From an uncultured Bacteroidales bacterium (GTDB lineage: Bacteria; Bacteroidota; Bacteroidia; Bacteroidales; Paludibacteraceae): a stretch of DNA of 58,647 bases. Shown in pieces: positions 3,187-55,791 of the stretch. Positions within the stretch are counted from its first letter, which is position 1. Each line of letters begins with the position of its first letter. The stretch is taken from assembly GCA_945828585.1 (NCBI GenBank), contig CALZRN010000001.1, positions 1-58,647 of the forward strand, written 5' to 3'. The position numbers and the translations under genes are program-made. Under the pieces are notes generated by a model. That model was not told the DNA's origin. It searched no databases and saw only the letters and a list, made by a program, of their open reading frames with translations.

Positions 3187-3233
3187 GGATTAGGGGGGGG
3201 GGGGATTAGGGGATTAGCGATTTTCGATTAGCG
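3187..3233. repeat. GATTAG word repeat with embedded G12 homopolymer
   Basis: Sequence is ggattag-G12-attaggggattagcgattttcgattagcg, with the G run at 3193-3204. It spans the stop of the DUF3737 gene and ends next to the ATG at 3186. Confidence 0.9.
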
Positions 3234-3990
3234 AGCCGGGGAGGGGATCGACGATGGAGGGGAGTTCGCCGAGGATGGTTGCACGGACGGAGGATTTCTC
3301 GAAGGCGCGGTCGGTGTCGGGCGCAAAAGAGCAATCTTCGAGAACGAGGTTCTCGGCATAACAAAGCGGTTGCGTACCGGAGATTCGGCAGCGGACGAGG
3401 CGGAGGTTCTTGGAGTACCAGCCGAGGTACTCGCTCTTGATCTCGGAGTCGTAGAGAGTGCAGTCTTCGCTGTTCCAGAAAGCGTCTTTGGTATCGAGGA
3501 CGGCGTTATGGATCTCGAGATTACGGGCGTACTGGAAGGTGTATTTGCCTTGTAATTGGATATTTGTAATTTGTAATTTGTCGGAATGCATAAAGGCGTA
3601 AGTAGCTTGCTCGATTTGGAGGTCGGAGATCTCGCCGGTACGGCAGTACCAGAAGGCTTCCGCGCCATCGGTTATCTTGATTCGCTCCAGAGTCAGGCGG
3701 TCTATCTCACGGAAGGCTTTGGGCGCATCGATGAGGCAGTCAAAGAGACGGAGATCGCGGCAGTACCAGAGCGGCGCGCGGTCAGAGGATGCGAAATAGC
3801 AGTTGCGGCAGGTGACGTCCTCGCACTCCCAGATGACGTACCTGCCCTCGAAACGGCAGTTGTCAGCGAGGATATGGCGAGACTCTTTGAGTCCCGACTC
3901 GCCTTCACCGATGGTGACGCGGGAGAGTTGGAGATCGCGGGAGGCGTATAAGGGGCGCTCGCCGGAGAAAAAGGTATCAGAGATTTTCAT
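3214..3990 (-). CDS. DUF3737-family protein (beta-helix-like repeat protein)
   Basis: 258-aa ORF. N-terminal FSGERPLYASRDL and a repetitive beta-helix-like pattern resemble the DUF3737 family. The C-terminal LIENR-stop is encoded by the GATTAG repeat. Confidence 0.55.
   Translation of the reverse strand: MKISDTFFSGERPLYASRDLQLSRVTIGEGESGLKESRHILADNCRFEGRYVIWECEDVTCRNCYFASSDRAPLWYCRDLRLFDCLIDAPKAFREIDRLTLERIKITDGAEAFWYCRTGEISDLQIEQATYAFMHSDKLQITNIQLQGKYTFQYARNLEIHNAVLDTKDAFWNSEDCTLYDSEIKSEYLGWYSKNLRLVRCRISGTQPLCYAENLVLEDCSFAPDTDRAFEKSSVRATILGELPSIVDPLPGSLIENR
3550..3581. repeat. GTAATTTG/CAAATT word repeat inside the DUF3737 CDS
   Basis: ttgtaattggatatttgtaatttgtaatttgt is read in frame as LQITNIQLQ. 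Confidence 0.8.
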
Positions 3991-4008
3991 TTTTTCGGGA
4001 TGACGGGA

Positions 4009-5688
4009 TTACGAATAGAGGTAGCGTTTGAGGGTTTGTTTCTCGGTGCGGGCGAGGGGTTGGTCGGTGATCACGACGTCGTAGAGCTGGGAGAAGAGAG
4101 GGAGGGACGGATTGACGGCGCGGAGGATCATGCGGCGGAGAGAGGAAGAGGGACTAGACGCACTAGACGCACTAGACTCACTAGACGCACTAGTCTCACT
4201 AGTCTCACTAGTCTCACTAGAGGGAACAACGATAGCGACGAGATGACCATCGCGGGCAAGGACGATGGATTCGGAGACTTCGGGGAGGGCGTTGATGAGG
4301 GATTCGATGTTGTCCGGGTGGATGTTCTCGCCGTTGGGGAGGACGATGATGTCCTGCTCCAGACGGCCTTCTACATAGAGATAGCCGTCCTCGTCCAAAT
4401 GACCTTTGTCGCCGGTATGGAGCCAGCCGTCGGAGTCAATCTTACGGGCGGTAGCTTCGGGGTCTTTGTAATAGCCGAGCATGACGTTCTCGCCTTTGAC
4501 CAGGATCTCGCCGGCAGGGGAGATGCGGCAAGTCATGCCGGAAACGATTTTGCCACAAGTTCCAAATTTATACTCGGAGCAAACAGAATAACTGATTAAA
4601 GGTCCTGTTTCTGTCATCCCGTAACCTATGGATATAGGGACCTTTTCTGCCATCAATGTTCTTTCTGTATTTTTATCAAATAAGGCTCCTCCTATATATA
4701 TTTGTTTACAGTTTTCTTTCAAAAGCACAACGCAGTCTTGATGCGCACGCATTAAGCCTGATACCAATTGAGGTATCAGTCTTAATGCGTATGGGCGCGT
4801 TATACATATAGACTTATAAAGATTTTCAATGGTTAATAATGAGCACAATATGTATATGTACTTTCCTTTCAACAATTGTCCTATTATCTCTGTCATAAAA
4901 CCGTATATATGAGACATAGGAAGGACAGAAAGAAAAGCATTTATGTCATCATCAGGGTAACCATCTATAATGTTTTGGGAGTTGTTACTCATGTTGCGAA
5001 TAGACAACATTATTCCCTTTGCACTACCCGATGTTCCCGACGTAAAACAGATCATAGCGAGGGAATCGGGAGCGGAGGGAGGGAAGCTGACTATTGAGGG
5101 GCTAGAGGGACTAGAGGGACTAGACGCTCTAGTCTCACTAGTCTCACTAGTCTCACTAGTCTCACTAGACGAACTAGACGAACTAGACGAACTAGATACA
5201 CTAGATGCACTAGATGCATTGGAAGCTATAATGGATGTTCCGGATGCGAGAGATTCAAAATTTTCAAGGGAAATGATATTTGCGACTTGCGGCATAGGCT
5301 GACTCTTTAATTCCGCCCAGATGTCCGGGTCGGTAAAGAGGGCTTTGGCATCGGAGAAAGCGACCAGACGGGCTATCTCATCGGGCATGAGGGTATGCAT
5401 GACGGTGACGGAGACACCTTGCATCTTAGCGATCGCGAGATAAGCGATTGCCCAATGGGCGGAGTTGGCTCCGCAGATGGCAATATGGTCACCCTTTTGC
5501 AGACCAAGGGCGGTAAGGAGATCCGCTACGCGGCAGAGTTCCGCATACATCTCGCCGTAGGTATAGTGGTTGCCACGGGTGGTATCTTGGGCGGTACCGT
5601 CCTCCGTGAGATAGAAGTCCGTGAGGGCGGGAGCATCCCAGTTATTGCGGATAGTTTCCGCGAGGATATTTAAGTAGTTTTCAGTCAT
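4009..5688 (-). CDS. AMP-dependent synthetase/ligase (fatty-acyl-CoA / acyl-AMP ligase-like)
   Basis: 559 aa with adenylate-forming motifs TSGTSGSAKG, GYGMTETG and GWLHTGDKG. It carries two Ser/Glu/Thr-rich in-frame tracts encoded by CTAG arrays. Confidence 0.85.
   Translation of the reverse strand: MTENYLNILAETIRNNWDAPALTDFYLTEDGTAQDTTRGNHYTYGEMYAELCRVADLLTALGLQKGDHIAICGANSAHWAIAYLAIAKMQGVSVTVMHTLMPDEIARLVAFSDAKALFTDPDIWAELKSQPMPQVANIISLENFESLASGTSIIASNASSASSVSSSSSSSSSSSETSETSETSETRASSPSSPSSPSIVSFPPSAPDSLAMICFTSGTSGSAKGIMLSIRNMSNNSQNIIDGYPDDDINAFLSVLPMSHIYGFMTEIIGQLLKGKYIYILCSLLTIENLYKSICITRPYALRLIPQLVSGLMRAHQDCVVLLKENCKQIYIGGALFDKNTERTLMAEKVPISIGYGMTETGPLISYSVCSEYKFGTCGKIVSGMTCRISPAGEILVKGENVMLGYYKDPEATARKIDSDGWLHTGDKGHLDEDGYLYVEGRLEQDIIVLPNGENIHPDNIESLINALPEVSESIVLARDGHLVAIVVPSSETSETSETSASSESSASSASSPSSSLRRMILRAVNPSLPLFSQLYDVVITDQPLARTEKQTLKRYLYS
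4151..4224. repeat. CTAG-N5 array, 8 units, exact 9-bp phase (inside ligase CDS)
   Basis: CTAG at 4154, 4163, 4172, 4181, 4190, 4199, 4208 and 4217. Translated as SSETSETSETSASSESSASSASS. Confidence 0.95.
5099..5218. repeat. CTAG-N5 array, 13 units, exact 9-bp phase (inside ligase CDS)
   Basis: CTAG every 9 bp from 5102 to 5210. Translated as SSASSVSSSSSSSSSSSETSETSETSETRASSPSSPSSPS, just upstream of the TSGTSG motif. Confidence 0.95.
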
Positions 5689-5707
5689 AGGCGATTTTGG
5701 GGGAATA

Positions 5708-5838
5708 GAGGGACTAGTCTCACTAGTCTCACTAGATGCACTAGTCTCACTAGACGCACTAGTCTCACTAGACGCACTAGTCTCACTAGATGGACTAGTC
5801 TCACTAGAGGAACTAGAGGGACTAGCCTATCTAGTAGT
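5708..5838. repeat. CTAG-N5 array, 14 units, exact 9-bp phase (intergenic)
   Basis: CTAG every 9 bp from 5714 to 5831. The last unit supplies the TAG stop of the four-helix-bundle gene. Confidence 0.95.
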
Positions 5839-6472
5839 CTATTCCGTGGGATTGGAGGATGTTTTGCAGGCGGAGAACTTCGCGCTCCAAGAACGCGAGA
5901 CGCTCCTTCTCGGCTTGCCGGTAGCCGGTACGAGCCGCGTGCATGCGCTCTTTGATGCCGCCTTCCTTGACAAACTGCTCTTCCAGTTGGTGCAGGTATG
6001 TGGTCATCATCTTGTCCACCATGTGGCACAGGGTTAGTGCCAGATTGCAAAACTCCTCATCGGATATTTTGTTGATTAGTTCTTTATACTCTTCGAAGGT
6101 ATTATGCTGGCGGCAAAAGGTCAGCATATCCCCATACCGGGCATGCGATTTGTCCCACCGGATAAGATTCTTCCGATTGAGATAATCGTTATAGTCCCGT
6201 TGTAACTCCTGAATACTCGACCGCGCCACATTGAGCAGATTGATCTCCATCTGTGTACTGGTCATACCGTCCTCCGAGCCCTCGACTATATTCTGTTTGC
6301 CGCTCCGGCTCGCCTGCACCATCTGGTCCACCGTGCGGTCGCCATGCTTGGGCAAGAAGCGCTCGCAGAAAATAACCGTCATTTGGAAGAGCGCGTCGGA
6401 TTTCTGGTAGAAATAGAGATTCTTCCAATTGGCAGGGCGGCGAAGAATGGTGTTGTAGGTGTTGTATTCCAT
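5831..6472 (-). CDS. four-helix-bundle protein (23S rRNA intervening-sequence protein family, with C-terminal suffix domain)
   Basis: 213 aa. The N-terminal YQKSDALFQMTVIFCERF...QMVQASRSGKQNIVEG pattern is typical of the family. The C-terminal part is helical. Confidence 0.7.
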   Translation of the reverse strand: MEYNTYNTILRRPANWKNLYFYQKSDALFQMTVIFCERFLPKHGDRTVDQMVQASRSGKQNIVEGSEDGMTSTQMEINLLNVARSSIQELQRDYNDYLNRKNLIRWDKSHARYGDMLTFCRQHNTFEEYKELINKISDEEFCNLALTLCHMVDKMMTTYLHQLEEQFVKEGGIKERMHAARTGYRQAEKERLAFLEREVLRLQNILQSHGIDY

Positions 6473-6485
6473 AGGATGTATTTTT

Positions 6486-6549
6486 TTGCTAGTCGGGCTA
6501 GTCTCACTAGACGCACTAGAGAATCTAGAGGGGCTAGAGGGACTAGATA
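6486..6549. repeat. CTAG-N5 array, 7 units, exact 9-bp phase (intergenic)
   Basis: CTAG every 9 bp from 6489 to 6543. The last unit supplies the TAG stop of the ACP gene. Confidence 0.95.
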
Positions 6550-6782
6550 TTTCGAGCTATGTAGTCGTAGAGGTCCTGGAGGGTAATGAGGGCCTTGATT
6601 TCGGGTTGGATGATGGGGCAGCCAAAGGTCTTTTGCACAAATGTGGCTATCGCTACTGCATCCACACTGGTAATTCCCAAATCACGGCGAAGTTCCGCAT
6701 CGGGAGTTATCTGCGAAGGGTCGAAATCCAGCGTGTCGATGAGAAACGCATTCGTTTGGGATATGATTTGTTGTTTAGTCAT
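6543..6782 (-). CDS. acyl carrier protein (dedicated, second ACP in window)
   Basis: 79 aa with a phosphopantetheine attachment-like DLGITSVDAV. Size and helical pattern fit carrier proteins. Confidence 0.8.
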   Translation of the reverse strand: MTKQQIISQTNAFLIDTLDFDPSQITPDAELRRDLGITSVDAVAIATFVQKTFGCPIIQPEIKALITLQDLYDYIARNI

Positions 6783-6821
6783 ATCGTTTCATAACAAGTA
6801 TTCAGTATTCAATATTTGATT

Positions 6822-6860
6822 GGCAAAGGTACTGCTTTTTTTTGAGATATGCAAGTTTTT
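6822..6860 (-). promoter_or_regulatory. Bacteroidota-type promoter internal to the accessory block (upstream of the ACP gene)
   Basis: The minus strand reads CTTGCATATCTCAAAAAAAAGCAGTACCTTTGCC. The -7 box TAccTTTG corresponds to + 6824-6831. Confidence 0.65.
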
Positions 6861-6869
6861 TTTGGAAAA

Positions 6870-6907
6870 ATCGATTAGGGATTAGCGATTTTCGATTAGA
6901 GGATTGC
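6870..6907. repeat. GATTAG word repeat (near-identical to 3205-3233)
   Basis: gattagggattagcgattttcgattag matches the copy at 3205-3232 except for one G. It encodes the LIENR-stop of the PSD-like gene. Confidence 0.9.
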
Positions 6908-7967
6908 CGACTTTGACGATTTTAGGGGTGATATGCGGGGCCTTGCCGGGTTCGAAGAAAAGGACGATGTCGCTGCCGCCGAAGAGGAAAGAGCCTAACT
7001 CAGTGCCCTGAGTTAATTTATGATTTATGATTTCAGATTTATGATTTATGAAAGTCCACCGGACGGAGGAGACTTGCTGGACGCCGACGGCGACAAGGGC
7101 GATTTTGCCGAAAGCGGGTGTGTCCAGGATGAGGACACCACGCGTCTCCAACATCTGAAAATCGGTCATGCCGAGTTGGTCATAGCGATACCTACCCTGC
7201 TCTTCGTCCCAGATAATGACACCTCCGCCGGCATGAATGCCTTCGATGGTCTTACATTCCAGCACCGTTCCGTCGCAAGGCGCATGGAAACGATGGTAGT
7301 CAAAGACATCGAGGACGATATGCGTCGTCTCGCCGCCAGCGAAGCACTCTCGATACGGGCTATCGCCGAGCAAATCCAGCCAGTTAGCGATAGACGCGGT
7401 CTTGACCGGCGCAAAGGCGATTTCGCCGTCGCAAGGGGAGAGGAAATTTCGTAATGACGTAATTACGTTTTCCCGTAATTCCGTCTTCAGCCCTCTGGCA
7501 AAAAAGTCATTCCACGAATGCCAATGGTCGGGCGACTCATAGCGATCGGTATCGAGTTCAAAGCGCGCGTCCGTACGCGCGATATTATAATAAGAGTCGT
7601 TCCAGCTATCCGGTCCGCTGAGCCATTTACCCCAAGCGGTATTATAGGCCTTGAGCCAAGCCGCCACTCGCGGTTCGTACTGAAGAGAGGGATAGATGTA
7701 GCCCTTATCGCGCAGGGCATCCAGCGGTTGGTCCAAAAGAAAATAGAAATAGCCGATATTCTGGTCAATGCGGCGGAAGAAGGAAGCGTCCTCGCCGATG
7801 TCCATCCCTTGCCAGGGCATACAATGCGCGAAACGCTCCACATAGGCGCACCACTCCTCCACCGTCCGCACGGGGTTCGTCTCCCGATGGGGATTGGCGA
7901 TAGCGGCTTGGTCCAGAGATTGCTTCAGGAGACAACGGAGGGATATGTTTTCTATAAAGGGCTGCAT
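6882..7967 (-). CDS. phosphatidylserine-decarboxylase-family pyruvoyl decarboxylase, long form with extra N-terminal domain (PsiD-like architecture)
   Basis: 361 aa with PSD-like motifs WNDFFARGLK, SPCDG and ELGSFLFGGSDIVLFF. The N-terminal extension of about 140 aa is absent from the short housekeeping psd at 45126. Confidence 0.65.
   Translation of the reverse strand: MQPFIENISLRCLLKQSLDQAAIANPHRETNPVRTVEEWCAYVERFAHCMPWQGMDIGEDASFFRRIDQNIGYFYFLLDQPLDALRDKGYIYPSLQYEPRVAAWLKAYNTAWGKWLSGPDSWNDSYYNIARTDARFELDTDRYESPDHWHSWNDFFARGLKTELRENVITSLRNFLSPCDGEIAFAPVKTASIANWLDLLGDSPYRECFAGGETTHIVLDVFDYHRFHAPCDGTVLECKTIEGIHAGGGVIIWDEEQGRYRYDQLGMTDFQMLETRGVLILDTPAFGKIALVAVGVQQVSSVRWTFINHKSEIINHKLTQGTELGSFLFGGSDIVLFFEPGKAPHITPKIVKVGNPLIENR
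7015..7052 (-). repeat. ATCATAAAT-family element, copy 1 (in frame inside PSD-like CDS)
   Basis: The minus strand reads tcataaatcataaatctgaaatcataaatcataaa, translated as INHKSEIINHKL. Confidence 0.9.
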
Positions 7968-7986
7968 ACTAGATGGATTAGATAGA

Positions 7987-9090
7987 CTAGCTCTCTAGTA
8001 ACCATTCGACATATTTGCGGACAAGGGATGCAAAGCGGCGGATAGAGGATTCTTTATAATGGGTAGCGGAGTAGCGGAACCATAGCGACAAATCCTGCGG
8101 ATGCTCATGAATCTCTACATCGAGGAGGGCATAGGCGTATTTGGGCTCATATTCCATATCCGGTACCCGCAGCACATTCACTGCATAATTCCAACGCTTG
8201 TTATACGGCGCAGTCAGCGTATAGGGATAATCGCTATGCGCTATACCCGATCGGATTTGATTACGAGCCTCGCGGATCAAATCCGATTTAGGATTGGAGA
8301 TTTGAGATTTGATATTTTTTATTTGGAAAGGAATATCGCGATGGAGACTACCGAAGATAGGTTGTTCTTCAGGTGTTTCGCGTCCCTCGTATGCCCATGT
8401 AAGCGCCGCATCGTCTGTGCCGCAATACTCCGCTATCGCCAAGGCGGTACAAAGCGAGAAAAGCCCCTCATAAGAGAGGTAATGCGCCTCAGAGAAGGTT
8501 TGTATTTTCTCCTGCAAATCGGAATAATCCGATTTATAGATTCCCGGTTTGGGAGGAAGAAGAGTGAACAACCTTTTCCGATCAGTCGTCGGACGGACAG
8601 GAACGGAGGTATTGGCGAATTCGTTAATCAGCCAATCTTGGCTGATACGATAATGCGGGTCTGTCTTATGCTGCTCAAAACGCGCTACATAGCCCCAGTA
8701 ATTATCCGGTTCCAAGGGTAAACCTTCGTACGCACGGCGGATATCATCTAATAATATCTCTCCGCTCTTCCCATCGCCTAAGATGCGGCTTATCTGTGCT
8801 TGGATTATTAAATCCTCGTCTTTTATCTTCAGGTCTATATCATGATACGGGCCATGGAGTATATCTTTCAGGGGTGATGGATAATGATTGCCCCCTCCAT
8901 CCACACGTATCTGAAAAACAGGATGGTTCGCCAAAGCAGTACGGATAGCTTGCTCTATACGGTTTTGCTCCTTTGCTCCTCCGCGCCACACGTAGGTGAA
9001 CGGAAAGGAGTACACTCCCGGCAGCCACCTCGTCATATCATAGACGAGTTGAGAAAAAGGAAGAAGCGGATAGGTTAAATAATAGCCCAT
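7987..9090 (-). CDS. condensation (C) domain-like protein with substituted active-site motif
   Basis: C1-like PLLPFSQLVYDM and C2-like ALANHPVFQIRV are present. C3 reads SRILGDGKS where HHxxxDG is canonical. Start chosen at MGYYLTYPLL (9090); the ORF is open to 9150. Confidence 0.5.
   Translation of the reverse strand: MGYYLTYPLLPFSQLVYDMTRWLPGVYSFPFTYVWRGGAKEQNRIEQAIRTALANHPVFQIRVDGGGNHYPSPLKDILHGPYHDIDLKIKDEDLIIQAQISRILGDGKSGEILLDDIRRAYEGLPLEPDNYWGYVARFEQHKTDPHYRISQDWLINEFANTSVPVRPTTDRKRLFTLLPPKPGIYKSDYSDLQEKIQTFSEAHYLSYEGLFSLCTALAIAEYCGTDDAALTWAYEGRETPEEQPIFGSLHRDIPFQIKNIKSQISNPKSDLIREARNQIRSGIAHSDYPYTLTAPYNKRWNYAVNVLRVPDMEYEPKYAYALLDVEIHEHPQDLSLWFRYSATHYKESSIRRFASLVRKYVEWLLES
8285..8326. 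repeat. CAAATCTCCAAT-family word repeat inside the C-domain-like CDS
   Basis: gatttaggattggagatttgagatttgatattttttatttgg is read as QIKNIKSQISNPKS. It shares the 12-mer CAAATCTCCAAT with 10430-10464. Confidence 0.8.
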
Positions 9091-9959
9091 ATTATTCCCC
9101 CTGCAATAATGATTAAGAATAAGACTCCGCATAGTTGCGGAGTGAACCAAGGTTTCTCTACTACCACCGGTTCTGCTTCTACCAAATCGCCCACATACCT
9201 CAGCATCGGTTCACCGTTGATTGTTGCGGTCGACCACACCTCCAACAAATCCGTTGGAAAAATGATTTTTTGCTTAGGCGACTGCATCTGCGACAAAGAC
9301 CTGCCTGCTGTTATACGAAATCCCAATAGCGTCCAGGGGTAATTTTCCACATGCTCCTCCGCTATCTCCATTGCTGATTTAGTCCGGTATTTTTCCGACC
9401 AGTTATACTTGATTTGGGCAGGAGAAAGGGCTTTCTCTACATATCGTAGAATAGTATTCGTACAACCGAATTTCAACAGATCCATCTGCATATCATTCTC
9501 CGTCAACATATGATTATCCATCTGCTCCCAGAGACGTTGCTCAGCATCAGCAGGCATATTAATGCGGTATTCATGCACAGCGCGTTTCCACACACGGTAG
9601 TCCTCAACGTACTCGTTAGTCGGTATTGCAAACATACCCATTTTTAGTTTGCCCGTTAGATAATCCCAGAGTTGTCCTTTGATCTTCTCACTCTCGTAAC
9701 TAAAACAATAATCCAAACCGAACGTAGGGCATTGCAGTCGCAGGAACGCATGACCGGTAATGCCGAGATAATCCTGGCTCTGGTCTGTCGGATCAGCAAC
9801 ACAGAGGGATACGAGAACAAAATCCGGGGCGAGGCGGTCGATGGTATCGTTGAAACCCTGCGCGGCATTCCGCTCCGCGACAGAAAGCGAATCCTGTCCC
9901 TTCGCCACAACGGAAAGGGACAGGATAGCCAAGCTGATTATCGTATGCATCCAACGCAT
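9075..9959 (-). CDS. DUF4105 (Lnb N-terminal periplasmic domain)-like protein, signal peptide plus C-terminal TM helix
   Basis: Start chosen at MRWMHTIISLAILSL (signal-like). GHAFLRL motif typical of DUF4105. C-terminal hydrophobic LCGVLFLIIIAGGIIWAII. Overlaps the next gene by 16 nt. Confidence 0.6.
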   Translation of the reverse strand: MRWMHTIISLAILSLSVVAKGQDSLSVAERNAAQGFNDTIDRLAPDFVLVSLCVADPTDQSQDYLGITGHAFLRLQCPTFGLDYCFSYESEKIKGQLWDYLTGKLKMGMFAIPTNEYVEDYRVWKRAVHEYRINMPADAEQRLWEQMDNHMLTENDMQMDLLKFGCTNTILRYVEKALSPAQIKYNWSEKYRTKSAMEIAEEHVENYPWTLLGFRITAGRSLSQMQSPKQKIIFPTDLLEVWSTATINGEPMLRYVGDLVEAEPVVVEKPWFTPQLCGVLFLIIIAGGIIWAII

Positions 9960-10169: not shown

Positions 10170-13100
10170 TTATTTAACTAATTGTCCGTCGATGGTGTAA
10201 ACCTTCTCACCACGGATGATGAAGACTTGATTATTGATCAGCACCTTCTTTGTCTCACCTTGCGCATCCACAACCGCTTCATCGATGCCGGTAGCCACTT
10301 GCGGTGCTTTGGCGCTGACGCGCAAACCGTAGTTAGCGGCAGTGCCCTTCTCCAGATGGAGTACATAATCGCTTTCCGTAAGATTCCAGATAGCTTCGCC
10401 ATTGCGAGTCAGATAGAGGGTATAAGCCTCATTTGACATTTGAGATTGGACATTGGAGATTTGGAACTCACCTGCTCTCGGAACATAGATACCCAATGGG
10501 AACTCGGCCACGTTATTGACAGGAGTCATCGTATTCATACATAGTTTCGCATCATAACGATCCACCCACATCTGCGCAACCGTATTGCTTACGCCGAATT
10601 TCACTACATCCTGACCAAGTGTATAGGTATCTGCTTCTTTATCTTCATTCGTATGGATAAAGAGGCGATCCTGCATTCTGCCATAGGAAGCTATCTCCAC
10701 TTGGAATTCTGCTTTTGGAGCCTCGGAAGCCGCATTGCGACGAACAGGAGCCGGTGCCGGAGGAGTGGTAACAGCCGAAGCCGTTCCGTTGTTAGTAGCC
10801 TGCACGAAGATCGGTTTTGCCACAATGAGTTTGGTGCTCAATGCAACCGGTTCGTAACTCTGGGCAGCGGCATTGAAGACTTGTCCTACCGCAGCACCGG
10901 TATTGCTGAGGTACGCATGGAAGATAGCGGGGTTTGCAATACCATTCCAGTTAGCATTTTTCGGTTCATCCGATCCATACATTGAGACGTTGGTTTCTGA
11001 TGTAAGGATCGGTGCTCCTAATTTCTTCGGGAATCGGAGTACGGAAGCGTCGTTCTGGAGATAGAGCATATAGAGACGACCCGGAACGAGCACATCGCCA
11101 TTCGACAGGTATTTCCAACATGCATCTACTTTATCTTGTGCTGCACGCACAGAGCCATCGTAGTAAGCGAGATAATCGCCACTCATCAGAGAGAGTGCAT
11201 TGCCATTAGCGCGGATATCACTTGCCGTTACTTGCCAAGGTACTGCTACCGCGTACCACTTGCCGGCGGTGAATGTACCGGTAAGGTCGTAATAGCAAAC
11301 ACCCGTGACATTAAGATTATTAATATTACCCGTCAACTGACCGGAAACCGTTCCGTTGGAGTGCAGAACCAGCTGGTTCACGGTAGTTTCCTCCGCGATA
11401 TTCTGCGCTTGACCCAAACCAACCTCCATGATCACTTCCGTAGCAGCAAAATGCGCATAATAAGTTGCATTGGCCGTAGCTTTCGGCGTCATATTGTTCT
11501 TATAGAACGTACCAGCACCATTCGGCTCTGTTGTCCAACCATCGAAAGTGAAAGTAGATTGAGCTGTAGCGGGTTTAGTCGGGATAGTGCCTGTATAGAT
11601 AGTCGCGGTGTTCGCTTTCTGACCAACAGGTTCTACCAAGTTGGCAGAACCATCCTCGTTCTTCCATGTGATTGTATAATCCGGGTTTGACACCGTGAAG
11701 TTAGCTACCAGATTGATATCGCCGGTAATAGCCATCTGACGTATTGTATTCGTACCGCCTTGACCATCACTCCAACCGGTAAAAGTATAACCACTATTCG
11801 GTGTGATAGTAATGGTAACGGCATTTTCAGATGCATTATAATCATAAATACCCGCCCCGGAGATTGCACACGCACCAGAAGGATTACTCATTACGGATAC
11901 CGTATATTTGTTGAGAGTTTCATCAAATACTGCCGTATAAGTAGCATCCCCCATCACGGTTTGGATCTGCGGTTCCCATCTAAGAGCATAGGTGTACTGC
12001 GCATCTGCGTCTTTTGTAGGAGTATTAGCACAAATAGGCGTCTCACCGTATTGGTACTGATGGCTCTCGATAATATCTGCCGGATCGTCCGGGCTACCAT
12101 TTTCCTTTATGAATTTGATTGTATAGGTCTTCGCTACTTCGCGATAAACGGCAGTATAGGACTTGACGCTCGTCGCAGAAACTTCTTCCAAAGCAGGCGA
12201 CCAATGGTCAAACTCATACGTAAACTCGTTCGTAGCAGGTTTGCCGCTCGGATTAGCCGGAGCAACCGGCATAGCACCTACAGCTACCATATACGGTTCT
12301 TCACCCGTCGGTTTGAGTTTGGTAGTACCATCATAGTCAAAGAACGTAACAGCATACTCCGTCGGTGGTTCTTCGAGCCATGTAGCACGATAGATAGCAT
12401 CGCCTGTAACCGCTGCGATAGCCGGTTCCCACTCCAAGGTATGACCTACTTTTGTTGGGGTATTCTCGCAGACAGGCACCTCGTTATGGGTAAGGAACTG
12501 ACGCTCAATCTCCACACCACCTTCGTTTTGGAAGATGATGGTGTACATACGCGGTTTCTGAGTGAACGTAGCCGTATAGGTCACATCGGAAGTTACCTTG
12601 CCCAGCGCCGGAGACCAACCTGCGAAGTCGTAGGTATAGTCGATTGTTGCCTCACGCATCGGGTTGGTTCCAAGGAACTCCGCCATTGTGCCATAGGTAA
12701 CGCTATAACTATCTTGAAGTCCTCCATCTGCATCTGCTGTTTTGATAATAGTACCATCATAGTTTTTCCAAGTGATCGTAAAGCGTTTTTCGTCCCAATG
12801 AGCTGGGATCATTACTTCTGGTTCCATTGGATCTGGGGCTTCTTTTTGCCAGTAATAATAAGTATCATTATTGGGGTGGATGCAATGATAGAGGTTGTCC
12901 TTCTTCTCCACCTCCCACCATTGACAGTTCTCTAGGAGGATGAAGAGACGGCCGGCGCCATCTGCATCGGAATAGGTGTGGTCGGCGTTGGGCGTTGTAC
13001 CGTTCGCCACTGCCACATATTCCTGCGGTTTTGCATAATAGGTATCTCCAGTCTCAGCGTTGTGCTGCACCATGAAACATCCTTCATTCGTCATAGTGGA

Positions 13101-18031: not shown

Positions 18032-19245
18032 GACCGTTTTCGGAATTTTCCTTTTCGTCTTCCGCCTCCTCCTTTATTAGGACGTGAGGCGTACCGGCTC
18101 ATCTGCGGCGCATCGCCCAAGACATCGGGTAATGGGAGACGGGTGATAGGTTGCTTGATAAACGTCTCTATTCGTTTCCAATACCGGGCATCCTCCGGCG
18201 AGACAAGGGTGATTGCCTCTCCGCTATTCTCCGCACGCGCTGTACGACCGATACGATGAACATAATCCTCGGGATCATGCGGCACGTCGTAATTAATGAC
18301 AAGCGGCACGTCCGTCACGTCGATACCCCGGGAGACGACATCCGTCGCTACGAGTACATCTACCTTTCCGTTTCTGAAATCCAGCATCACCTGATCCCTC
18401 TCCGACTGCTCGAGATCGGAGTGCATTGCGCGCGCGCCTATCTTTAAGGTACGCAACGTGCGCGCGAGGTCTTTCACTTTCTGCTTCTTGCCGGCAAAGA
18501 TTATCACCTTCTTCAGATTCCTACCTTCCAGCGCCAGCTGTACAAAACCGGGTTTCTGCGCTTCGTACAGGTACGCAGACATCTGGTTGATGGTCTCCGG
18601 CGGCCGGGAGACGGCAATCTGCACCTCTACGGGACGACGCATGATTGCCTTCGCCATCTGGCGGATCTTAGGCGGCATGGTAGCAGAGAACATGATCGTC
18701 TGGCGGTCTTTAGGCAGCTTGCGGACGATGGTCATGATATCGTCGTAGAAGCCCATATCGAGCATTCGATCCGCCTCGTCCAAGATGAAATACTTCACTC
18801 CGGAGAAATCGATATCGTAGATATTCATCTGGCTCAAGAGCCGTCCGGGGGTAGCGATGACGATGTCCGCACCTTTCTGCAGACCCGTGACCTGTGTGCC
18901 CCACGCACCGTTGTCTTTTCCGCCGTAGATAGGCACAGAAGAGAAGGGCACGTAATATCCGAAGCCCTCCATCTGCTGATCTATCTGCTGCGCCAGTTCG
19001 CGCGTCGGCGCCATGATGATCGCGTTCAGTTTGTCGGGGTCGTGGTCGTCGTACGCGAGGTTCGTCAGCAAGGGCAGTATATACGCCGCGGTCTTACCTG
19101 TACCCGTCTGGGCACAAGCAATCACGTCGTGGCGGTCCAGGATCACCGGGATGGCTTTCTCCTGAACGGGCGTGCATTCATCAAAATGCATGTCCCACAA
19201 GGCGTCTAACACCTCATCCGATAATGCGAGTTCGTCAAAAAACAT
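18028..19245 (-). CDS. DEAD-box ATP-dependent RNA helicase
   Basis: Motifs AQTGTGKT, DEAD, SAT and HRIGRTAR, plus a basic C-terminal tail. Confidence 0.9.
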   Translation of the reverse strand: MFFDELALSDEVLDALWDMHFDECTPVQEKAIPVILDRHDVIACAQTGTGKTAAYILPLLTNLAYDDHDPDKLNAIIMAPTRELAQQIDQQMEGFGYYVPFSSVPIYGGKDNGAWGTQVTGLQKGADIVIATPGRLLSQMNIYDIDFSGVKYFILDEADRMLDMGFYDDIMTIVRKLPKDRQTIMFSATMPPKIRQMAKAIMRRPVEVQIAVSRPPETINQMSAYLYEAQKPGFVQLALEGRNLKKVIIFAGKKQKVKDLARTLRTLKIGARAMHSDLEQSERDQVMLDFRNGKVDVLVATDVVSRGIDVTDVPLVINYDVPHDPEDYVHRIGRTARAENSGEAITLVSPEDARYWKRIETFIKQPITRLPLPDVLGDAPQMSRYASRPNKGGGGRRKGKFRKRS

Positions 19246-19281
19246 TTACCATTTAGTCATTTAGCATTTACCATTTATTTC
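19243..19281. repeat. CATTTACC/CATTTAG word repeat filling a gene junction
   Basis: catttaccatttagtcatttagcatttaccatttatttc spans the helicase ATG (19245) and the SDR stop (19275). Confidence 0.9.
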
Positions 19282-20852: not shown

Positions 20853-20880
20853 TTATGATTTATGATTTCAAATTTATTTC
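20850..20880 (-). repeat. ATCATAAAT-family element, copy 2 (5' of the SDR start codon)
   Basis: The minus strand reads gaaataaatttgaaatcataaatcataaATG. The ATG is the SDR start at 20852. Confidence 0.9.
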
Positions 20881-36414: not shown

Positions 36415-36452
36415 TTGGTCATTTATTTAGCCATTTGGCCATTGAGGTACTC
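36389..36452. repeat. CATTTACC/CCATTTGG word repeat filling a gene junction
   Basis: atatttaccatttgctcatttaccatttggtcatttatttagccatttggccattg spans the U32 start and the asd stop. It encodes MVNEQMVN and NGQMAK-stop. Confidence 0.9.
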
Positions 36453-45125: not shown

Positions 45126-45797
45126 ATGAAAAGACCAAGAATCCACAGAGAAGGACGCAACATGATTATCATCATCGTGTTGCTCTTGTTTATCATCAAC
45201 ATCCCGGTGTACATGTATTTCTCCCATTGGGTGTTCGGCGTGACGCTGATTCTTACAGCCACGTTACTGGTGTTCGTCACCTATTTCTTCCGTAACCCCG
45301 TACGAGTGCTGGAGATAGATGATCCGAACTTCATCATCGCCCCCGCAGACGGTCGCGTAGTGGTCGTCGAGCCTACGGACGAGAACGAGTATTTCCATGA
45401 GAAGAAGTTGCAGGTGTCCATCTTCATGTCGCCTTTCAACGTCCATGCCAACTGGTACCCCATAGAGGGAAATATCCTCGTCTCCGAGCATCAGAAAGGC
45501 CATCACAAAGGTGCATGGTTGCCTAAGTCCAGCACCGAGAACGAGCGCTCGCTCGTCGTCATCGAGACGCCTTCGAAAATCCAGATCGCCGTGCGGCAGA
45601 TCGCCGGAGCCATGGCACGACGCATCGTCACCTACGCCAAGCCCGGACATCAGGCGCATCGCAACACCCATCTCGGTTTTATCAAACTCGGTAGCCGCGT
45701 GGACATGTACCTACCGCTCGATACGGAGATGTTCGTCACCGTCGGAGAAGCCGTGCGCGGTAATGAGACCATCTTAGGACGCCTCGCCGAGAAATAA
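45126..45797 (+). CDS. psd: phosphatidylserine decarboxylase family protein (short, housekeeping type)
   Basis: 223 aa with N-terminal TM segments, APADGRVV and the FIKLGSRVDMYLP self-processing-type motif. Confidence 0.85.
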   Translation: MKRPRIHREGRNMIIIIVLLLFIINIPVYMYFSHWVFGVTLILTATLLVFVTYFFRNPVRVLEIDDPNFIIAPADGRVVVVEPTDENEYFHEKKLQVSIFMSPFNVHANWYPIEGNILVSEHQKGHHKGAWLPKSSTENERSLVVIETPSKIQIAVRQIAGAMARRIVTYAKPGHQAHRNTHLGFIKLGSRVDMYLPLDTEMFVTVGEAVRGNETILGRLAEK

Positions 45798-45835
45798 TCC
45801 CCTAATCCCCTAACCCGTTAAACCGTCAAATCATC
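45797..45835. repeat. CCCCTAA/CCGTTAAA word repeat between psd and deoC
   Basis: aatcccctaatcccctaacccgttaaaccgtcaaatcatc ends at the deoC ATG. Confidence 0.85.
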
Positions 45836-49058: not shown

Positions 49059-49075
49059 ATTTGAAATCATAAATG
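49042..49075 (+). repeat. ATCATAAAT-family element, copy 4 (stop of the fusion gene to the start of dacB)
   Basis: aaatcataaatcataaatttgaaatcataaATG encodes NHKS-stop of the upstream gene and supplies the ATG at 49073. Confidence 0.9.
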
Positions 49076-53527: not shown

Positions 53528-53532
53528 CGATT

Positions 53533-55791
53533 ATGGAATTTTTAGATCAACTCAATACTACCCAACGCGCTGCGGTCACGGCTACGGAAGGGCCGTCGCT
53601 CATCGTCGCAGGTGCCGGTTCGGGCAAGACCAGAGTCTTGACCTACCGCATCGCTTATCTCTTGTCACAAGGCGTACCCGCCGGGAATATCTTAGCCCTA
53701 ACGTTCACCAACAAAGCCGCGCGGGAGATGAAGGAGCGTATTCAGAAACTCGTCGGCAACGACGCGCGTTACCTCTGGATGGGTACCTTCCATAGTATCT
53801 GCGCGAAACTGCTGAGACACGATGCAGAGAAACTCGGCTTCACCCGCGATTTCACTATCTACGACACCTCCGACAGCAAGTCCGTCATCAAAGCTATCTG
53901 CAAGGAGCGCGGGCTGGACGAGAAGATATACAAACCGACAGTGGTCTTAGGACGGATCTCCATGGCGAAGAACAACCTGATCTCCCCTTCCCAGTATGGG
54001 CAGAACCGCGACTTGCTGCAGGCCGACCGCGAGGCACGGCTGTACGACATCACCACCGTCTATGCCCTCTACGAGGCGCGACTCAAAGCAGCCAACGCCA
54101 TGGATTTTGACGACCTGCTGATTAACATGCTACGCCTCATGGACCAGTACCCCGACGTGCGCGAGCAGCTACAACTGATGTTCCGATACGTGCTCGTCGA
54201 TGAGTACCAGGATACGAACTATGTCCAGTACCTCCTCGTCGGCAGACTCGCTGCACCCCAGGATAATATCTGCGTCGTCGGCGATGATGCGCAGAGTATC
54301 TACTCCTTCCGCGGAGCGGACATACGCAACATCCTCAATTTCCGTCAGCAGTACCCCCGGGCGCAACTCTTCAAACTCGAGCGCAACTACCGCTCGACCC
54401 GCAATATCGTCAATGCCGCTAACTCCCTCATCCATAAGAACATCCACCAGATTGAGAAGACCGTCTTCTCCGAGAAAGAGGAGGGACAACCCCTGCGGCT
54501 CAATGCCTATATGGACGACCGCTCCGAAGCCAACGGCGTAGCCGAGCAAATCGCCAAAGCCCATACCCAGTACGACTACGACGACATCGCCATCCTCTAT
54601 CGGACGAACGCGCAGAGCCGTGTCTTCGAGAACGAACTGCGCAAACGCAACATCCCCTACCGCATCTATGGCGGCACCTCCTTCTACCAGCGCAAGGAGA
54701 TCAAGGACGCTCTCGGCTACTTCCGCCTGGCGGTCAACCCCCGCGATAACGAAGCCCTGCTCCGTATCGTCGGCTTTCCCGGTCGTGGCATCGGAGACAC
54801 GACGATGAAGAAAGTGTCGGCAAACGCCATCGCTCACCACCTGTCCTACCTCGAGGTCATGCGCCTGCCCGAAGAGTCCGGGCTGGATGTGAGCGCAGCG
54901 ACCATGAAAAAACTGCAGGCTTTTGCCCTCCTCATGGACCAACTCGCCCAACTCAGCGAAGAGACCGACGCTTATACTTTTGCTGAACAAACGCTCCGCA
55001 CGACAGGTGTCATGACCGCACTCGCTATCGACACCACGCCTGAAGGCATCGACCGCGCGCAGAACGTTCAGGAGCTCCTCAACGCCATCCGTGAGTTCGT
55101 CGTCCAGAGGCAGGAGGAAGGCATCGACTTCACCCCCATCACCGACTTCCTCTCCGAAGTCAGCCTCCAGACCGACCAGGACGAGAACCTCTCTGACACC
55201 ACCGAACGCGTGACGCTGATGACGGTGCACGCCGCCAAAGGTCTGGAGTTCCCCGTCGTCTTCATCGGTGGCATGGAGGAGAACCTCTTCCCCAGCCAGT
55301 TCTGTACCAAACCCGGTGAGATAGAGGAAGAGCGGCGGTTACTCTATGTCGCTATCACCCGAGCTATGGAGCGGTGCTATCTCTCCTACGCCCGCCAGCG
55401 TTTCCGTAACGGTCAGATGGCGTTCAACAGTCCCTCCCGTTTCCTCAATGACATCGACCGACAGTACCTCGACCTTGCCCGACCGGCCTTCGGCCTGCAA
55501 GAACACAGACCGGCTGGTAGTTTTGGTCTCTCTAGTATATCTAGTATATCTAGTCCCTCTAGAATGCCTAGTCCTGCGCGGTTTACACGCGTGGTGTCTT
55601 CCCCCCTCCAAGGGGGGAGTGAGGGGGGCTTCCTTGCCGGCGATAGAGTCACCCACCGCGTCTTCGGAGACGGCACCGTCGTCCGCGTCTATCGGGACGA
55701 GATCACGGAGAATGATAAGATTGAGATTAACTTCGATACCCAGGGCACCAAGACCCTGCTCCTTACCCACGCGAAATTAGAGAAGATCTAA
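53533..55791 (+). CDS. uvrD: ATP-dependent DNA helicase (UvrD/PcrA/Rep family)
   Basis: Start set at MEFLDQLNTTQRAAV. Motifs AGAGSGKT, DEYQDTN and TVHAAKGLEF are present. The C-terminal region carries a CTAG array and a GC-hairpin insert. Confidence 0.92.
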   Translation: MEFLDQLNTTQRAAVTATEGPSLIVAGAGSGKTRVLTYRIAYLLSQGVPAGNILALTFTNKAAREMKERIQKLVGNDARYLWMGTFHSICAKLLRHDAEKLGFTRDFTIYDTSDSKSVIKAICKERGLDEKIYKPTVVLGRISMAKNNLISPSQYGQNRDLLQADREARLYDITTVYALYEARLKAANAMDFDDLLINMLRLMDQYPDVREQLQLMFRYVLVDEYQDTNYVQYLLVGRLAAPQDNICVVGDDAQSIYSFRGADIRNILNFRQQYPRAQLFKLERNYRSTRNIVNAANSLIHKNIHQIEKTVFSEKEEGQPLRLNAYMDDRSEANGVAEQIAKAHTQYDYDDIAILYRTNAQSRVFENELRKRNIPYRIYGGTSFYQRKEIKDALGYFRLAVNPRDNEALLRIVGFPGRGIGDTTMKKVSANAIAHHLSYLEVMRLPEESGLDVSAATMKKLQAFALLMDQLAQLSEETDAYTFAEQTLRTTGVMTALAIDTTPEGIDRAQNVQELLNAIREFVVQRQEEGIDFTPITDFLSEVSLQTDQDENLSDTTERVTLMTVHAAKGLEFPVVFIGGMEENLFPSQFCTKPGEIEEERRLLYVAITRAMERCYLSYARQRFRNGQMAFNSPSRFLNDIDRQYLDLARPAFGLQEHRPAGSFGLSSISSISSPSRMPSPARFTRVVSSPLQGGSEGGFLAGDRVTHRVFGDGTVVRVYRDEITENDKIEINFDTQGTKTLLLTHAKLEKI
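55529..55575. repeat. CTAG-N5 array, 5 units, exact 9-bp phase (inside uvrD)
   Basis: CTAG at 55532, 55541, 55550, 55559 and 55568. Read as SSISSISSPSRMPSP. Confidence 0.95.
55598..55633 (+). repeat. GC-rich hairpin element, copy 2 (in frame in uvrD)
   Basis: cttCCCCCCtccaaGGGGGGagtgaGGGGGGCttcc is read as SSPLQGGSEGGFL. Confidence 0.85.

What the first reader, a model, noticed from the sequence alone, without database searches (positions are those of the whole stretch)
4151..6549. Phase-locked 9-bp CTAG-N5 arrays in coding and intergenic DNA (fifth array at 55529-55575)
Seen: 47 CTAG tetranucleotides fall into five arrays, each with an exact 9-bp register. The arrays are 8 copies (4154-4217), 13 copies (5102-5210), 14 copies (5714-5831), 7 copies (6489-6543) and 5 copies (55532-55568). 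The 5-nt spacers vary (TCTCA, ACGCA, ATGCA, AGGGA, ACGAA, TATAT and others). The period equals three codons, so the three intragenic arrays stay open. Two in the AMP-ligase gene give SETSETSET/SSASS tracts flanking the catalytic core, and one in the uvrD C-terminal region gives SSISSISSPS. All three use a frame that avoids the TAG. The two intergenic arrays end exactly on genes, so that their last CTAG supplies the TAG stop of the four-helix-bundle gene (5831-5833) and of the ACP gene (6543-6545). Established: CTAG is a palindrome, it is the BfaI recognition site, and it is generally under-represented in bacterial genomes. Dense phased arrays are therefore unexpected. Inference: possibilities include iteron-like protein-binding arrays, copy-number-variable linkers, or a selfish in-frame microsatellite that spreads by recombination. 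I know of no described element with this structure.
Basis: partly seen in the sequence, partly recalled or inferred. Interest (0 to 1): 0.8.

Follow-up and report, generated by a model that had tools for sequence, protein, structure and literature searches.

The report
Hypervariable CTAG arrays with partner gene
Five runs of a 9-base unit built on the otherwise avoided word CTAG are real, change length between strains and belong to a repeat family spread through gut Bacteroidales, and two of them bracket a small four-helix-bundle gene that turns up inside such arrays again and again, a repeat-gene pairing I could not find described.

Summary
Of 58 CTAGs in the window, 47 sit in five arrays in exact 9-bp register; shuffles give none. 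Outside the arrays CTAG is the most depleted palindromic tetramer (observed/expected 0.05).

The arrays are constrained at the DNA level, not as protein linkers:
- Serine codons inside them are 93% AGT or TCT, against 27% elsewhere.
- The three coding arrays lie in insertion-tolerant loops or linkers.
- Ten independent assemblies of the same species differ by whole units, and CTAG is always kept.

The same build, a fixed CTAG core with a free spacer, recurs mainly in Bacteroidales, mostly filling spacers between co-directional genes.

The new result is that the two intergenic arrays bracket a "four helix bundle suffix" gene (TIGR02436+TIGR04258, PF05635).
- Strains lacking the gene carry one solo array at the same site.
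- In 80 independent loci of this gene family, CTAG density is 25- to 100-fold above background within 100 bp of the gene ends.
- Two array classes, [T/A]CTAG[A/T] at 9 bp and CCTAGG at 10 bp, track protein clades.

Best reading: a hairpin-prone, self-expanding repeat family partnered with a cassette-like gene, working like REP-RAYT but not a member of it. Function is unproven.

The parts
6489..6546 (-). CTAG array of 7 units in the spacer between the ACP gene and the four-helix-bundle gene. Its first unit on the sense strand supplies the ACP TAG stop (6543-6545). This is the left half of the bracketing pair.
   Evidence: Strains carry 7-8 units here. Its left flank equals the left flank of the solo array in strains that lack the gene.
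5831..6472 (-). Four-helix-bundle-suffix gene, 213 aa (PF05635 / TIGR02436 plus TIGR04258). It lies nested between the two intergenic arrays.
   Evidence: The AlphaFold2 model is all-helical with pLDDT 86.9. The best fold matches are 2gsc and 2rld, both of the S23p family. The gene is absent in strains L218, L225 and L226.
5714..5834 (-). CTAG array of 14 units in the spacer between the four-helix-bundle gene and the ligase gene. Its first unit supplies the four-helix-bundle gene's TAG stop (5831-5833). This is the right half of the bracketing pair.
   Evidence: Strains carry 9-14 units here. Units 2-4 and the right flank match the solo array of the empty allele.
5695..5703 (-). Homopolymer tract (C5A4 on the sense strand) between the array and the ligase ATG. 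It varies between strains, which breaks any fixed reading-frame link between array and gene.
   Evidence: C5-7 and A4-9 in different strains.
5102..5213 (-). CTAG array of 13 units inside the AMP-ligase gene, at about residues 159-195. It encodes an S/T/E/P-rich loop.
   Evidence: The site varies greatly in length among homologues. Strains carry 9-13 units. L136 and L137 carry 3-4 units of the same types at the same site.
4154..4220 (-). CTAG array of 8 units inside the AMP-ligase gene, in the C-terminal domain at about residues 517-540.
   Evidence: Strains carry 7-8 units. L136 carries 5 units at the same site.
4009..5688 (-). AMP-binding acyl ligase gene that hosts two of the arrays.
6543..6782 (-). 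Acyl-carrier-protein gene upstream of the array-gene-array module.
   Evidence: The identical protein was used to find the empty sites.
55532..55571 (+). CTAG array of 5 units inside uvrD. It encodes SSISSISSPS in the linker between the helicase core and the C-terminal domain.
   Evidence: PcrA aligns up to residue 663 and again from residue 700, so the tract falls between the two aligned parts.
7969..7998 (-). Decayed CTAG array (CTAG, CTAA, CTAG, plus one CTAG off register) that overlaps the start of the PSD-like gene.
   Evidence: Strains L122, L124 and L127 have 4-5 intact units here.

Best explanation
The five arrays belong to a repeat family found mainly in Bacteroidales. Each unit has a fixed palindromic CTAG core, here [T/A]CTAG[T/A] with a 9-bp period, and a free spacer. 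A sister class has the core CCTAGG and a 10-bp period.

Shown:
- The arrays are constrained at the DNA level.
- They gain and lose whole units between strains.
- They sit where extra sequence is tolerated: spacers between genes of an operon, and disordered protein loops read in one of the two TAG-free frames.
- The two intergenic arrays of the window are the two sides of one array that holds a four-helix-bundle-suffix gene. Strains without the gene have a single solo array at the same place.
- This gene family is specifically embedded in CTAG arrays, and the array class follows the protein clade.

Inferred:
- Neighbouring palindromic cores pair into mini-hairpins with 3-4-nt loops. This would promote slippage and favour units that keep the core.
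- Recombination within arrays lets the gene enter and leave as a cassette, leaving solo arrays behind.
- Repeat and gene form a selfish partnership that works like REP-RAYT.

Whether the protein binds or spreads the arrays is not shown.
For: DNA-level constraint:
- Of 42 Ser codons in the arrays, 39 are AGT or TCT; these two make up 27% of Ser codons elsewhere.
- CTAG is invariant while the spacers differ. In Bacteroidales arrays 79% of spacers are distinct and they differ at 2.1 of 5 positions on average, against 0.47 of 5 in other phyla.

Whole-unit variation:
- The four arrays of the operon carry 7-8, 9-14, 9-13 and 7-8 units across ten assemblies that encode the identical four-helix-bundle protein.

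Permissive sites:
- Both ligase tracts lie at sites that vary greatly in length among homologues. The UvrD tract lies in a linker.

Distribution:
- The scan for five phased CTAGs gave 119 or more genome loci, of which 97 are Bacteroidales or unclassified gut bacteria.
- Of 128 arrays, 50 lie between co-directional genes and 34 are intragenic.
- The flanking genes are ordinary housekeeping genes.

Gene link:
- Close homologues of the four-helix-bundle gene adjoin arrays in 5 genome loci. This is the only flanking family that recurs across more than two loci.
- At 80 loci fetched through the protein alone, CTAG density is 52 and 29 per kb in the first 100 bp downstream, 13 and 22 per kb upstream, and about 0.5 per kb in the background.
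- 52 of these 80 genes have an array nearby.
- The gaps between neighbouring CTAGs there are 9 bp (205 cases) and 10 bp (150 cases).
- A locus carries one array class only: 28 loci have period 9, 23 have period 10 and 1 has both.
- Protein identity is 0.70 within an array class and 0.59 between classes, with 0 of 2000 permutations reaching that difference. The nearest-neighbour protein has the same class in 50 of 52 cases.
- 51 of 73 of these genes end in TAG, and 29 of 73 in CTAG.

Empty and occupied alleles:
- L218, L225 and L226 have the identical ACP protein, no four-helix-bundle gene, and one array of 5-6 units. That array has the left flank of window array 6489-6546, and the right flank and units of window array 5714-5834.

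Hairpins:
- Folded as single strands, the arrays form tandem or nested hairpins between cores. The z-score is -6.4 for a CCTAGG array and -3.1 to -3.75 for the long window arrays.

Precedent:
- S23p ORFs of the same Pfam family lie in a selfish 23S rRNA intervening sequence, preceded by tandem heptamers whose number varies between strains (PMC4990558).
Against: - No recombinase, transposase or nuclease domain is detected in the gene.
- The protein family is about neutral in charge (median pI 6.9), unlike a typical non-specific nucleic-acid binder.
- About 95% of the sampled Bacteroidales arrays of 5 or more units have no four-helix-bundle gene within reach.
- 28 of the 80 genes have no array nearby.
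- The match between array class and protein clade could reflect host phylogeny rather than co-evolution.
- The direction of the event is unknown: insertion into an array, or deletion between two arrays.
- The strains with the empty site also have a mosaic ligase allele, so they are not isogenic with the window.
- The ligase arrays are old and also occur in L137, which shows no adjacent gene of this family.
- Two of the window's arrays fold no better than shuffles at a convincing level (z -1.3 and -1.8), and one array from another locus folds worse than its shuffles.
Confidence: 0.55

Rival explanations
1. The arrays are operator-like binding sites on DNA. An oligomeric protein reads CTAG cores spaced about one helical turn apart and thereby regulates or insulates operons. 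The binder could be the four-helix-bundle-suffix protein, whose relatives form toroidal pentamers, or a host factor. CTAG is kept by selection for binding.
For: CTAG is invariant while the spacers vary freely. The spacing is 9-10 bp. Array class follows protein clade, with four class-specific residues: Q23/R, L77/I, L117/R and R121/H. CTAG is strongly avoided elsewhere, as expected for a signal. Relatives 2gsc and 2rld crystallise with five chains, and a homopentameric toroid is reported for the Xanthomonas S23p (PMC4990558).
Against: No DNA-binding domain is detected. The protein is not basic. Arrays also sit inside coding regions, where a regulatory role is unlikely. Copy number is free to vary from 5 to 30 units.
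Confidence: 0.2
2. The arrays act at the RNA level. Tandem mini-hairpins in spacers between cistrons stabilise or process polycistronic mRNA, as REP elements do in E. coli operons. Alternatively they form a repeat RNA that is handled by the four-helix-bundle protein, as in type III toxin-antitoxin systems.
For: Most arrays lie between co-directional genes and fill the spacer. The sense strand is A-rich in the spacer positions. Cores pair into hairpins with 3-4-nt loops. Arrays are most frequent just downstream of the gene.
Against: Arrays next to the four-helix-bundle genes show no consistent strand orientation of the spacers. Arrays also occur between convergent and divergent genes (19 of 128). 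The hairpins are weak in the 9-bp class. The units are far shorter than the 34-36-nt repeats of type III antitoxins (my knowledge). No Rfam family matches.
Confidence: 0.15
3. The arrays are ordinary coding microsatellites for serine-rich linkers plus neutral slippage products. The four-helix-bundle gene sits beside them by chance.
For: Three of the five arrays encode S/T-rich loops. Homogeneous 9-bp repeats that contain CTAG occur by chance in other phyla and in viral contigs.
Against: Ser codon use in the arrays is almost only AGT and TCT. Most related arrays are non-coding. A 10-bp class exists, and periods 6, 12 and 15 are absent in Bacteroidales flanks. CTAG is enriched up to 100-fold at the gene ends in loci chosen through the protein alone. 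Permutation of array classes gives 0 of 2000.
Confidence: 0.05
4. The intergenic arrays are translated. They would link ACP, the four-helix-bundle protein and the ligase into fusion proteins through a +1 frameshift at the TAG, or they would be N-terminal extensions of the downstream genes.
For: In the window, the serine frame of both intergenic arrays is open and in frame with the downstream ATG (worked out).
Against: The poly-C/poly-A tract between the array and the ligase ATG changes length by amounts that are not multiples of three among strains, so the frame relation is not conserved. There is no start codon in the open stretch. The chance of both arrays being in frame is about 1 in 9.
Confidence: 0.02

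Closest known systems
REP/REPIN elements and their RAYT genes (repetitive extragenic palindromes with IS200/IS605-like Y1 transposases)
   Same: Short palindromic units are dispersed in intergenic regions of operons. One gene family is found flanked by the repeats. Repeat class follows gene clade, which is the argument originally used to link REP and RAYT (my knowledge). Here the same pattern appears.
   Different: The partner gene is a four-helix bundle with no HUH/Y1 transposase domain. The units are 9-10 bp in head-to-tail arrays with free spacers, not palindromes of about 20-40 bp in inverted doublets. The arrays also colonise coding loops.
S23p ORF within the 23S rRNA intervening sequence (Coxiella, Leptospira)
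   Same: The protein belongs to the same Pfam family (PF05635). The ORF sits inside an inserted selfish element. In Coxiella it is preceded by tandem heptamers whose number differs between strains (PMC4990558).
   Different: The host site there is an rRNA helix excised by RNase III, not an operon spacer. The repeats are GACAGAT heptamers on one side only. The Coxiella protein lacks the TIGR04258 suffix domain.
Avd of diversity-generating retroelements
   Same: Four-helix-bundle fold of the PF05635-like family. Homology between Avd (4DWL) and 2GSC is noted in PMC10053308.
   Different: No sign of a reverse transcriptase or template/variable repeat pair was seen at the locus, though I did not search for them specifically. 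The family here is about neutral in charge. Arrays of 9-10-bp units are not part of these retroelements.
Variable-number tandem repeats and contingency loci
   Same: Whole-unit gain and loss between strains. In-frame tolerance within genes.
   Different: The units are not homogeneous: only the 4-6-bp core is kept. The same build recurs at many loci and in many genera, and it comes with a partner gene.
Tandem operator arrays (MetJ metboxes, TrpR CTAG half-sites)
   Same: Short palindromic units are repeated head to tail with a period just under one helical turn. CTAG is the TrpR core (my knowledge).
   Different: Those arrays have 2-5 units at specific promoters and an 8-bp period. Here there are 5-30 units at operon spacers and in coding DNA, and no repressor has been identified.
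Cyanobacterial STRR heptamer repeats
   Same: Short tandem repeats dispersed through intergenic and coding DNA of one lineage.
   Different: The units and the lineage differ. STRR have no fixed-core-plus-free-spacer build, and no partner gene is known for them (my knowledge).

Membership tests
REP-RAYT | The partner gene encodes an IS200/IS605-type Y1 (HUH) transposase. | tested here: not met
   The Pfam and NCBIfam scans of the gene give only PF05635, TIGR02436 and TIGR04258.
REP-RAYT | The repeat is an imperfect palindrome of about 20-40 bp, often in inverted pairs. | tested here: not met
   The units are 9-10 bp, arranged head to tail, with a 4-6-bp palindromic core.
REP-RAYT | The gene is flanked by the repeats, and repeat class matches gene clade. 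| tested here: met
PF05635 / TIGR02436 four-helix-bundle (S23p, Avd-like) proteins with the TIGR04258 suffix | Profile matches above the curated cut-offs, and a four-helix-bundle fold. | tested here: met
   TIGR04258 scores 72.1 bits (cut-off 40) and TIGR02436 scores 33.5 bits (cut-off 24). PF05635 scores 31.7 bits, just under its cut-off of 33.8. The model is all-helical and its best fold matches are 2gsc and 2rld.
Diversity-generating retroelement | A reverse transcriptase and a template/variable repeat pair next to the Avd-like gene. | not tested
   The neighbours of the gene in the window and in strains are ACP, ligase, a PSD-like gene and DUF3737, with no reverse transcriptase among the called genes. 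I ran no specific search for template and variable repeats.
Plasmid or phage iterons | Direct repeats of about 17-22 bp at a replication origin, next to a Rep initiator gene. | tested here: not met
   The units are 9 bp. The arrays lie inside a biosynthetic operon and in uvrD, with no rep gene nearby.
CRISPR array | Repeats of 23-47 nt separated by spacers of similar length, usually with cas genes. | tested here: not met
   The core is 4-6 nt and the spacer 3-5 nt.
Type III toxin-antitoxin | Tandem repeats of about 34-36 nt upstream of an endoribonuclease toxin gene, separated from it by a terminator. | tested here: not met
   The units are 9-10 nt and lie on both sides of the gene. PADLOC gives no hit.
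Serine-rich coding microsatellite (protein-level linker) | The repeat is kept for the peptide, so synonymous codons vary and the repeats are confined to ORFs. | tested here: not met
   Ser codons in the arrays are 93% AGT or TCT. Two of the five window arrays and most related arrays are intergenic.
Known RNA families (Rfam 15) | A covariance-model match. | tested here: not met
   Positions 3500-8500 of the window give only chance-level hits, all far below their gathering scores.

The most novel reading that the evidence does not exclude
CTAG-core arrays and four-helix-bundle-suffix genes form a previously unrecognised repeat-protein system of gut Bacteroidales. In this reading a toroidal Avd/S23p-like protein recognises phased palindromic cores, with separate classes for 9 bp [T/A]CTAG[A/T] and 10 bp CCTAGG. 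The protein drives the spread of the arrays and its own cassette-like entry and exit without any canonical recombinase. It leaves on the order of a hundred solo arrays per genome in operon spacers and protein loops.
Probability: 0.2. Interest if true: 0.9.

Novelty: new variant of a known kind. Interest (0 to 1): 0.78.

Why it matters
Bacteroidales dominate gut and rumen communities. A repeat family that fills operon spacers, inserts variable peptide loops into enzymes such as an acyl ligase and UvrD, and changes length between strains would be a widespread and so far unannotated source of strain-level variation and of assembly breaks.

The specific embedding of four-helix-bundle-suffix genes in these arrays gives the first testable lead on a very large family of unknown function. 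The capped search returned 7,992 sequence clusters. Its relatives include the DGR protein Avd and the S23p ORFs of rRNA intervening sequences.

If the protein recognises or mobilises the arrays, it would be a second repeat-and-partner-gene system beside REP-RAYT, with an unrelated protein fold.

Tried and rejected
- **Frameshift, fusion or N-terminal extension.** Both intergenic arrays are in frame with the downstream ATG in the window. I rejected this reading because strains shift that frame.
- **Assembly artefact.** Rejected, because independent assemblies and cultured isolates carry arrays.
- **Known RNA family.** The Rfam scan gave nothing.
- **Defence system.** PADLOC gave no hit.
- **Period spectrum in viral contigs.** Generic coding repeats dominate that collection, most hits are homogeneous repeats, and none has a four-helix-bundle gene. 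The result is uninformative for the Bacteroidales class.
- **More empty sites.** I compared the flanks of the four-helix-bundle loci with the array loci. This gave no usable orthologous pair.
- **Cargo genes.** I asked whether other genes bracketed by two arrays are cargo. They are housekeeping genes such as SufE, EngA and UPF0029, so arrays simply occupy successive spacers.
- **Sequence search of the PDB.** It gave only a weak hit to 2gsc.
- **Literature.** Seven searches found no description of the arrays or of the suffix-domain family.
Full report
**Observation**

The window holds 58 CTAGs. Three phased CTAGs occur 37 times in the window and never in 100 dinucleotide-preserving shuffles. 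Tandem Repeats Finder recovers the arrays independently. Outside the arrays CTAG occurs 11 times, against about 227 expected from base composition or 89 from a Markov model. It is the most depleted palindromic tetramer in the window, with observed/expected 0.05.

**Gene context**

The genes of the region lie on the minus strand:

| Gene | Coordinates |
|---|---|
| condensation-like | 7987-9150 |
| PSD-like | 6882-7967 |
| ACP | 6543-6782 |
| 213-aa four-helix-bundle protein | 5831-6472 |
| AMP-binding ligase | 4009-5688 |
| DUF3737 | 3214-3990 |

UvrD lies on the plus strand at 53494-55791.

**The constraint is on DNA, not on protein**

- In the coding arrays, 39 of 42 serine codons are AGT or TCT. 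None is TCC, AGC or TCA, although those three make up half of all serine codons elsewhere in the window.
- Both ligase tracts sit at two positions where homologues differ widely in length. Some homologues have no insert and others carry unrelated inserts.
- The UvrD tract falls between the helicase core (aligned to PcrA up to residue 663) and the C-terminal domain (from residue 700).

So the peptide tracts are tolerated insertions, not conserved features.

**Strain variation**

Ten contigs from different samples encode the identical four-helix-bundle protein. They carry the same four arrays with 7-8, 9-14, 9-13 and 7-8 units and with reshuffled unit types. CTAG is kept in every unit. Mutated cores (CTAC, CTAA) appear only at array edges or in decayed arrays.

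A poly-C/poly-A tract between the array and the ligase ATG also varies in length. This breaks the in-frame relation seen in the window and rules out a fusion or frameshift reading.

More distant lineages (L136, L137) have 3-5 units of the same types at the same two ligase sites, so those arrays are old and have expanded here. A lineage with 79% ligase identity (L132) has no CTAG arrays at all. There the spacer between ACP and ligase is built from heptamer repeats.

**Distribution**

My own estimate of the chance expectation for 20 fixed bases in 596 Gb is below one.
- 97 of the loci are Bacteroidales or unclassified gut bacteria (Prevotella, Bacteroidaceae, Muribaculaceae, Paludibacteraceae), and they include cultured isolates. 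Eight are gut PVC taxa and 14 are from other phyla.
- The hits from other phyla are ordinary homogeneous repeats, whose spacers differ at 0.47 of 5 positions. In the Bacteroidales arrays only the core is kept: 79% of spacers are distinct and they differ at 2.1 of 5 positions on average.
- Of 128 arrays, 50 lie between co-directional genes and usually fill the whole spacer. A further 34 are intragenic, 14 lie between convergent genes and 5 between divergent genes.
- The flanking genes are housekeeping genes.
- In the flanks of these loci, further CTAG arrays have periods of 9 bp (23 arrays), 8 bp (6) and 10 bp (3). None has a period of 6, 12 or 15 bp, so the arrays do not simply follow codon periodicity.
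- From 23 extra arrays in 873 kb, I estimate very roughly 80 arrays per 3-Mb genome in carrier genomes. This is my inference.

**The gene link**

The four-helix-bundle protein is TIGR02436 plus the TIGR04258 "four helix bundle suffix" domain. Its AlphaFold2 model is all-helical (pLDDT 86.9), and its best structural matches are the S23p-family proteins 2gsc and 2rld.

*In the genome loci chosen for their arrays.* Close homologues adjoin arrays in five of the genome loci. This is the only flanking family that recurs across more than two loci. In four of six cases the gene's stop codon is the first CTAG of the downstream array.

*In loci chosen through the protein alone.* I then fetched 80 metagenome loci by similarity to the protein.
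- CTAG density is 52 and 29 per kb in the first two 50-bp bins downstream of the gene, and 13 and 22 per kb upstream. The background is about 0.5 per kb.
- 51 of 73 of these genes end in TAG, and 29 of 73 in CTAG.
- Spacing in this unbiased set is 9 bp (205 gaps) or 10 bp (150 gaps).
- There are two classes: [T/A]CTAG[A/T] plus three free bases, and CCTAGG plus four free bases. A locus has one class only (28 loci with period 9, 23 with period 10, 1 with both).
- Protein clades follow array class. Identity is 0.70 within a class and 0.59 between classes, and 0 of 2000 permutations reach that difference. The nearest-neighbour protein has the same class in 50 of 52 cases.

**Empty and occupied alleles**

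Three contigs (L218, L225, L226) encode the identical ACP protein but lack the four-helix-bundle gene. Between ACP and ligase they carry a single array of 5-6 units. Its left flank is that of window array 6489-6546. Its right flank and units (CTAGTCCCT CTAGTTCCT CTAGTGAGA) are those of window array 5714-5834.

The occupied allele is therefore array-gene-array, and the empty allele is a solo array. This fits either insertion into an array or deletion between two arrays. The direction is not known, and the ligase allele of these strains is mosaic.

Homologues of the four-helix-bundle gene at 85-88% nucleotide identity have unrelated flanks on both sides, which fits relocation or paralogy. Other selfish genes inserted in the same operon (HipA, AbiEii, an AAA ATPase) are not bracketed by arrays.

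**Mechanism (inferred)**

A 6-bp palindrome followed by 3-4 free bases is the minimal hairpin geometry. Folded as single strands, CCTAGG arrays form strings of hairpins with 4-nt loops (z -6.4). The 9-bp arrays form hairpins with 3-nt loops or nested hairpins (z about -3 for the long window arrays). Two short window arrays and one GC-rich array from another locus are not distinctive.

Pairing between neighbouring cores would promote slippage. It would also favour units that keep the core, which could explain core conservation without a binding protein.

Binding of the protein to the arrays is untested, and the family is about neutral in charge.

**Comparison with known systems**

The system works most like REP-RAYT: dispersed palindromic repeats, a partner gene flanked by them, and repeat class matched to gene clade. 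It fails that family's defining features, because it has no Y1 transposase and the repeat is built differently.

The nearest relative by protein family is the S23p ORF of the Coxiella 23S rRNA intervening sequence. That is a selfish element whose ORF is preceded by tandem heptamers that vary in number between strains (PMC4990558). PF05635 proteins are also regarded as Avd-like (PMC10053308).

Seven literature searches and an Rfam scan found no description of these arrays or of the suffix-domain family.

**Verdict**

The arrays form a real family, found mainly in Bacteroidales, that is hypervariable and constrained at the DNA level. Their specific association with four-helix-bundle-suffix genes is statistically strong and appears to be undescribed. 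How the arrays spread, and what the protein does, remain inference.

Noticed in passing
window 19243-19277, 20851-20868, 36391-36443, 45795-45813, 49042-49074, 51222-51255, 3212-3234, 6872-6899: Tandem arrays of 7-8 bp fill the spacers between genes almost exactly. Their units contain a stop triplet (TAAATCA, CATTTAG, TAATCCCC, TTAATTT, GATTAGC). They often supply the stop codon of the upstream gene and sometimes the start of the next gene. Two unrelated proteins end in ...IENR because of the GATTAGC array.
   Followed up: partly
window 7016-7051, 8292-8317 and 10430-10463 (inside ORFs): Heptamer arrays also sit inside coding regions and give 7-residue peptide repeats, for example INHKSEIINHK in the PSD-like protein. 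The same peptide style appears at the variable sites of ligase homologues P0012 and P0016.
   Followed up: partly
L016:1508-1532, L054:6736-6774, L090:4250-4281 and 11 more: Bacteroidales loci carry AATT-anchored heptamer arrays with free 3-nt spacers. This is the same palindromic-core-plus-free-spacer build as the CTAG arrays. I found 14 arrays of 4 or more units and 19 of 3 or more units.
   Followed up: partly
window 5695-5703: A homopolymer tract (C5A4 on the sense strand) just upstream of the ligase start varies between strains, with C5-7 and A4-9. It may affect translation initiation.
   Followed up: no
window 6783-6881 and orthologous spacers in L128, L129, L132, L134, L136, L137, L218: The spacers of this lipid-type biosynthetic operon are hot spots for inserted accessory genes in different lineages. 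The inserts are HipA/HTH, AbiEii with a partner, an ATPase_2/AAA_14 gene, and a second PF05635 gene with a Zn-ribbon after the ligase.
   Followed up: partly
window 4009-5688 compared with L218:3319-4914: Ligase alleles are mosaic between strains that share an identical ACP protein. Identity is about 93% in the first 300 nt, 45-66% in the middle, and above 90% again near nt 1300-1500. This points to recombination within the gene.
   Followed up: no
L002, L036, L049, L050, L078, L082, L098, L100: Gut and rumen PVC bacteria (Victivallales, Kiritimatiellia, Lentisphaeria, a Verrucomicrobia MAG) also carry CTAG arrays with moderately varied spacers. L050 has arrays of 18 and 14 units. No four-helix-bundle homologue was seen next to them.
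   Followed up: partly
L179:206-290 and 957-1221: The most extreme case found is a four-helix-bundle-suffix gene with 10 CTAG units upstream and 30 units downstream, on a 1.6-kb contig. Many proteins of this family sit on contigs of 1-5 kb, as would be expected if the arrays break short-read assemblies.
   Followed up: no
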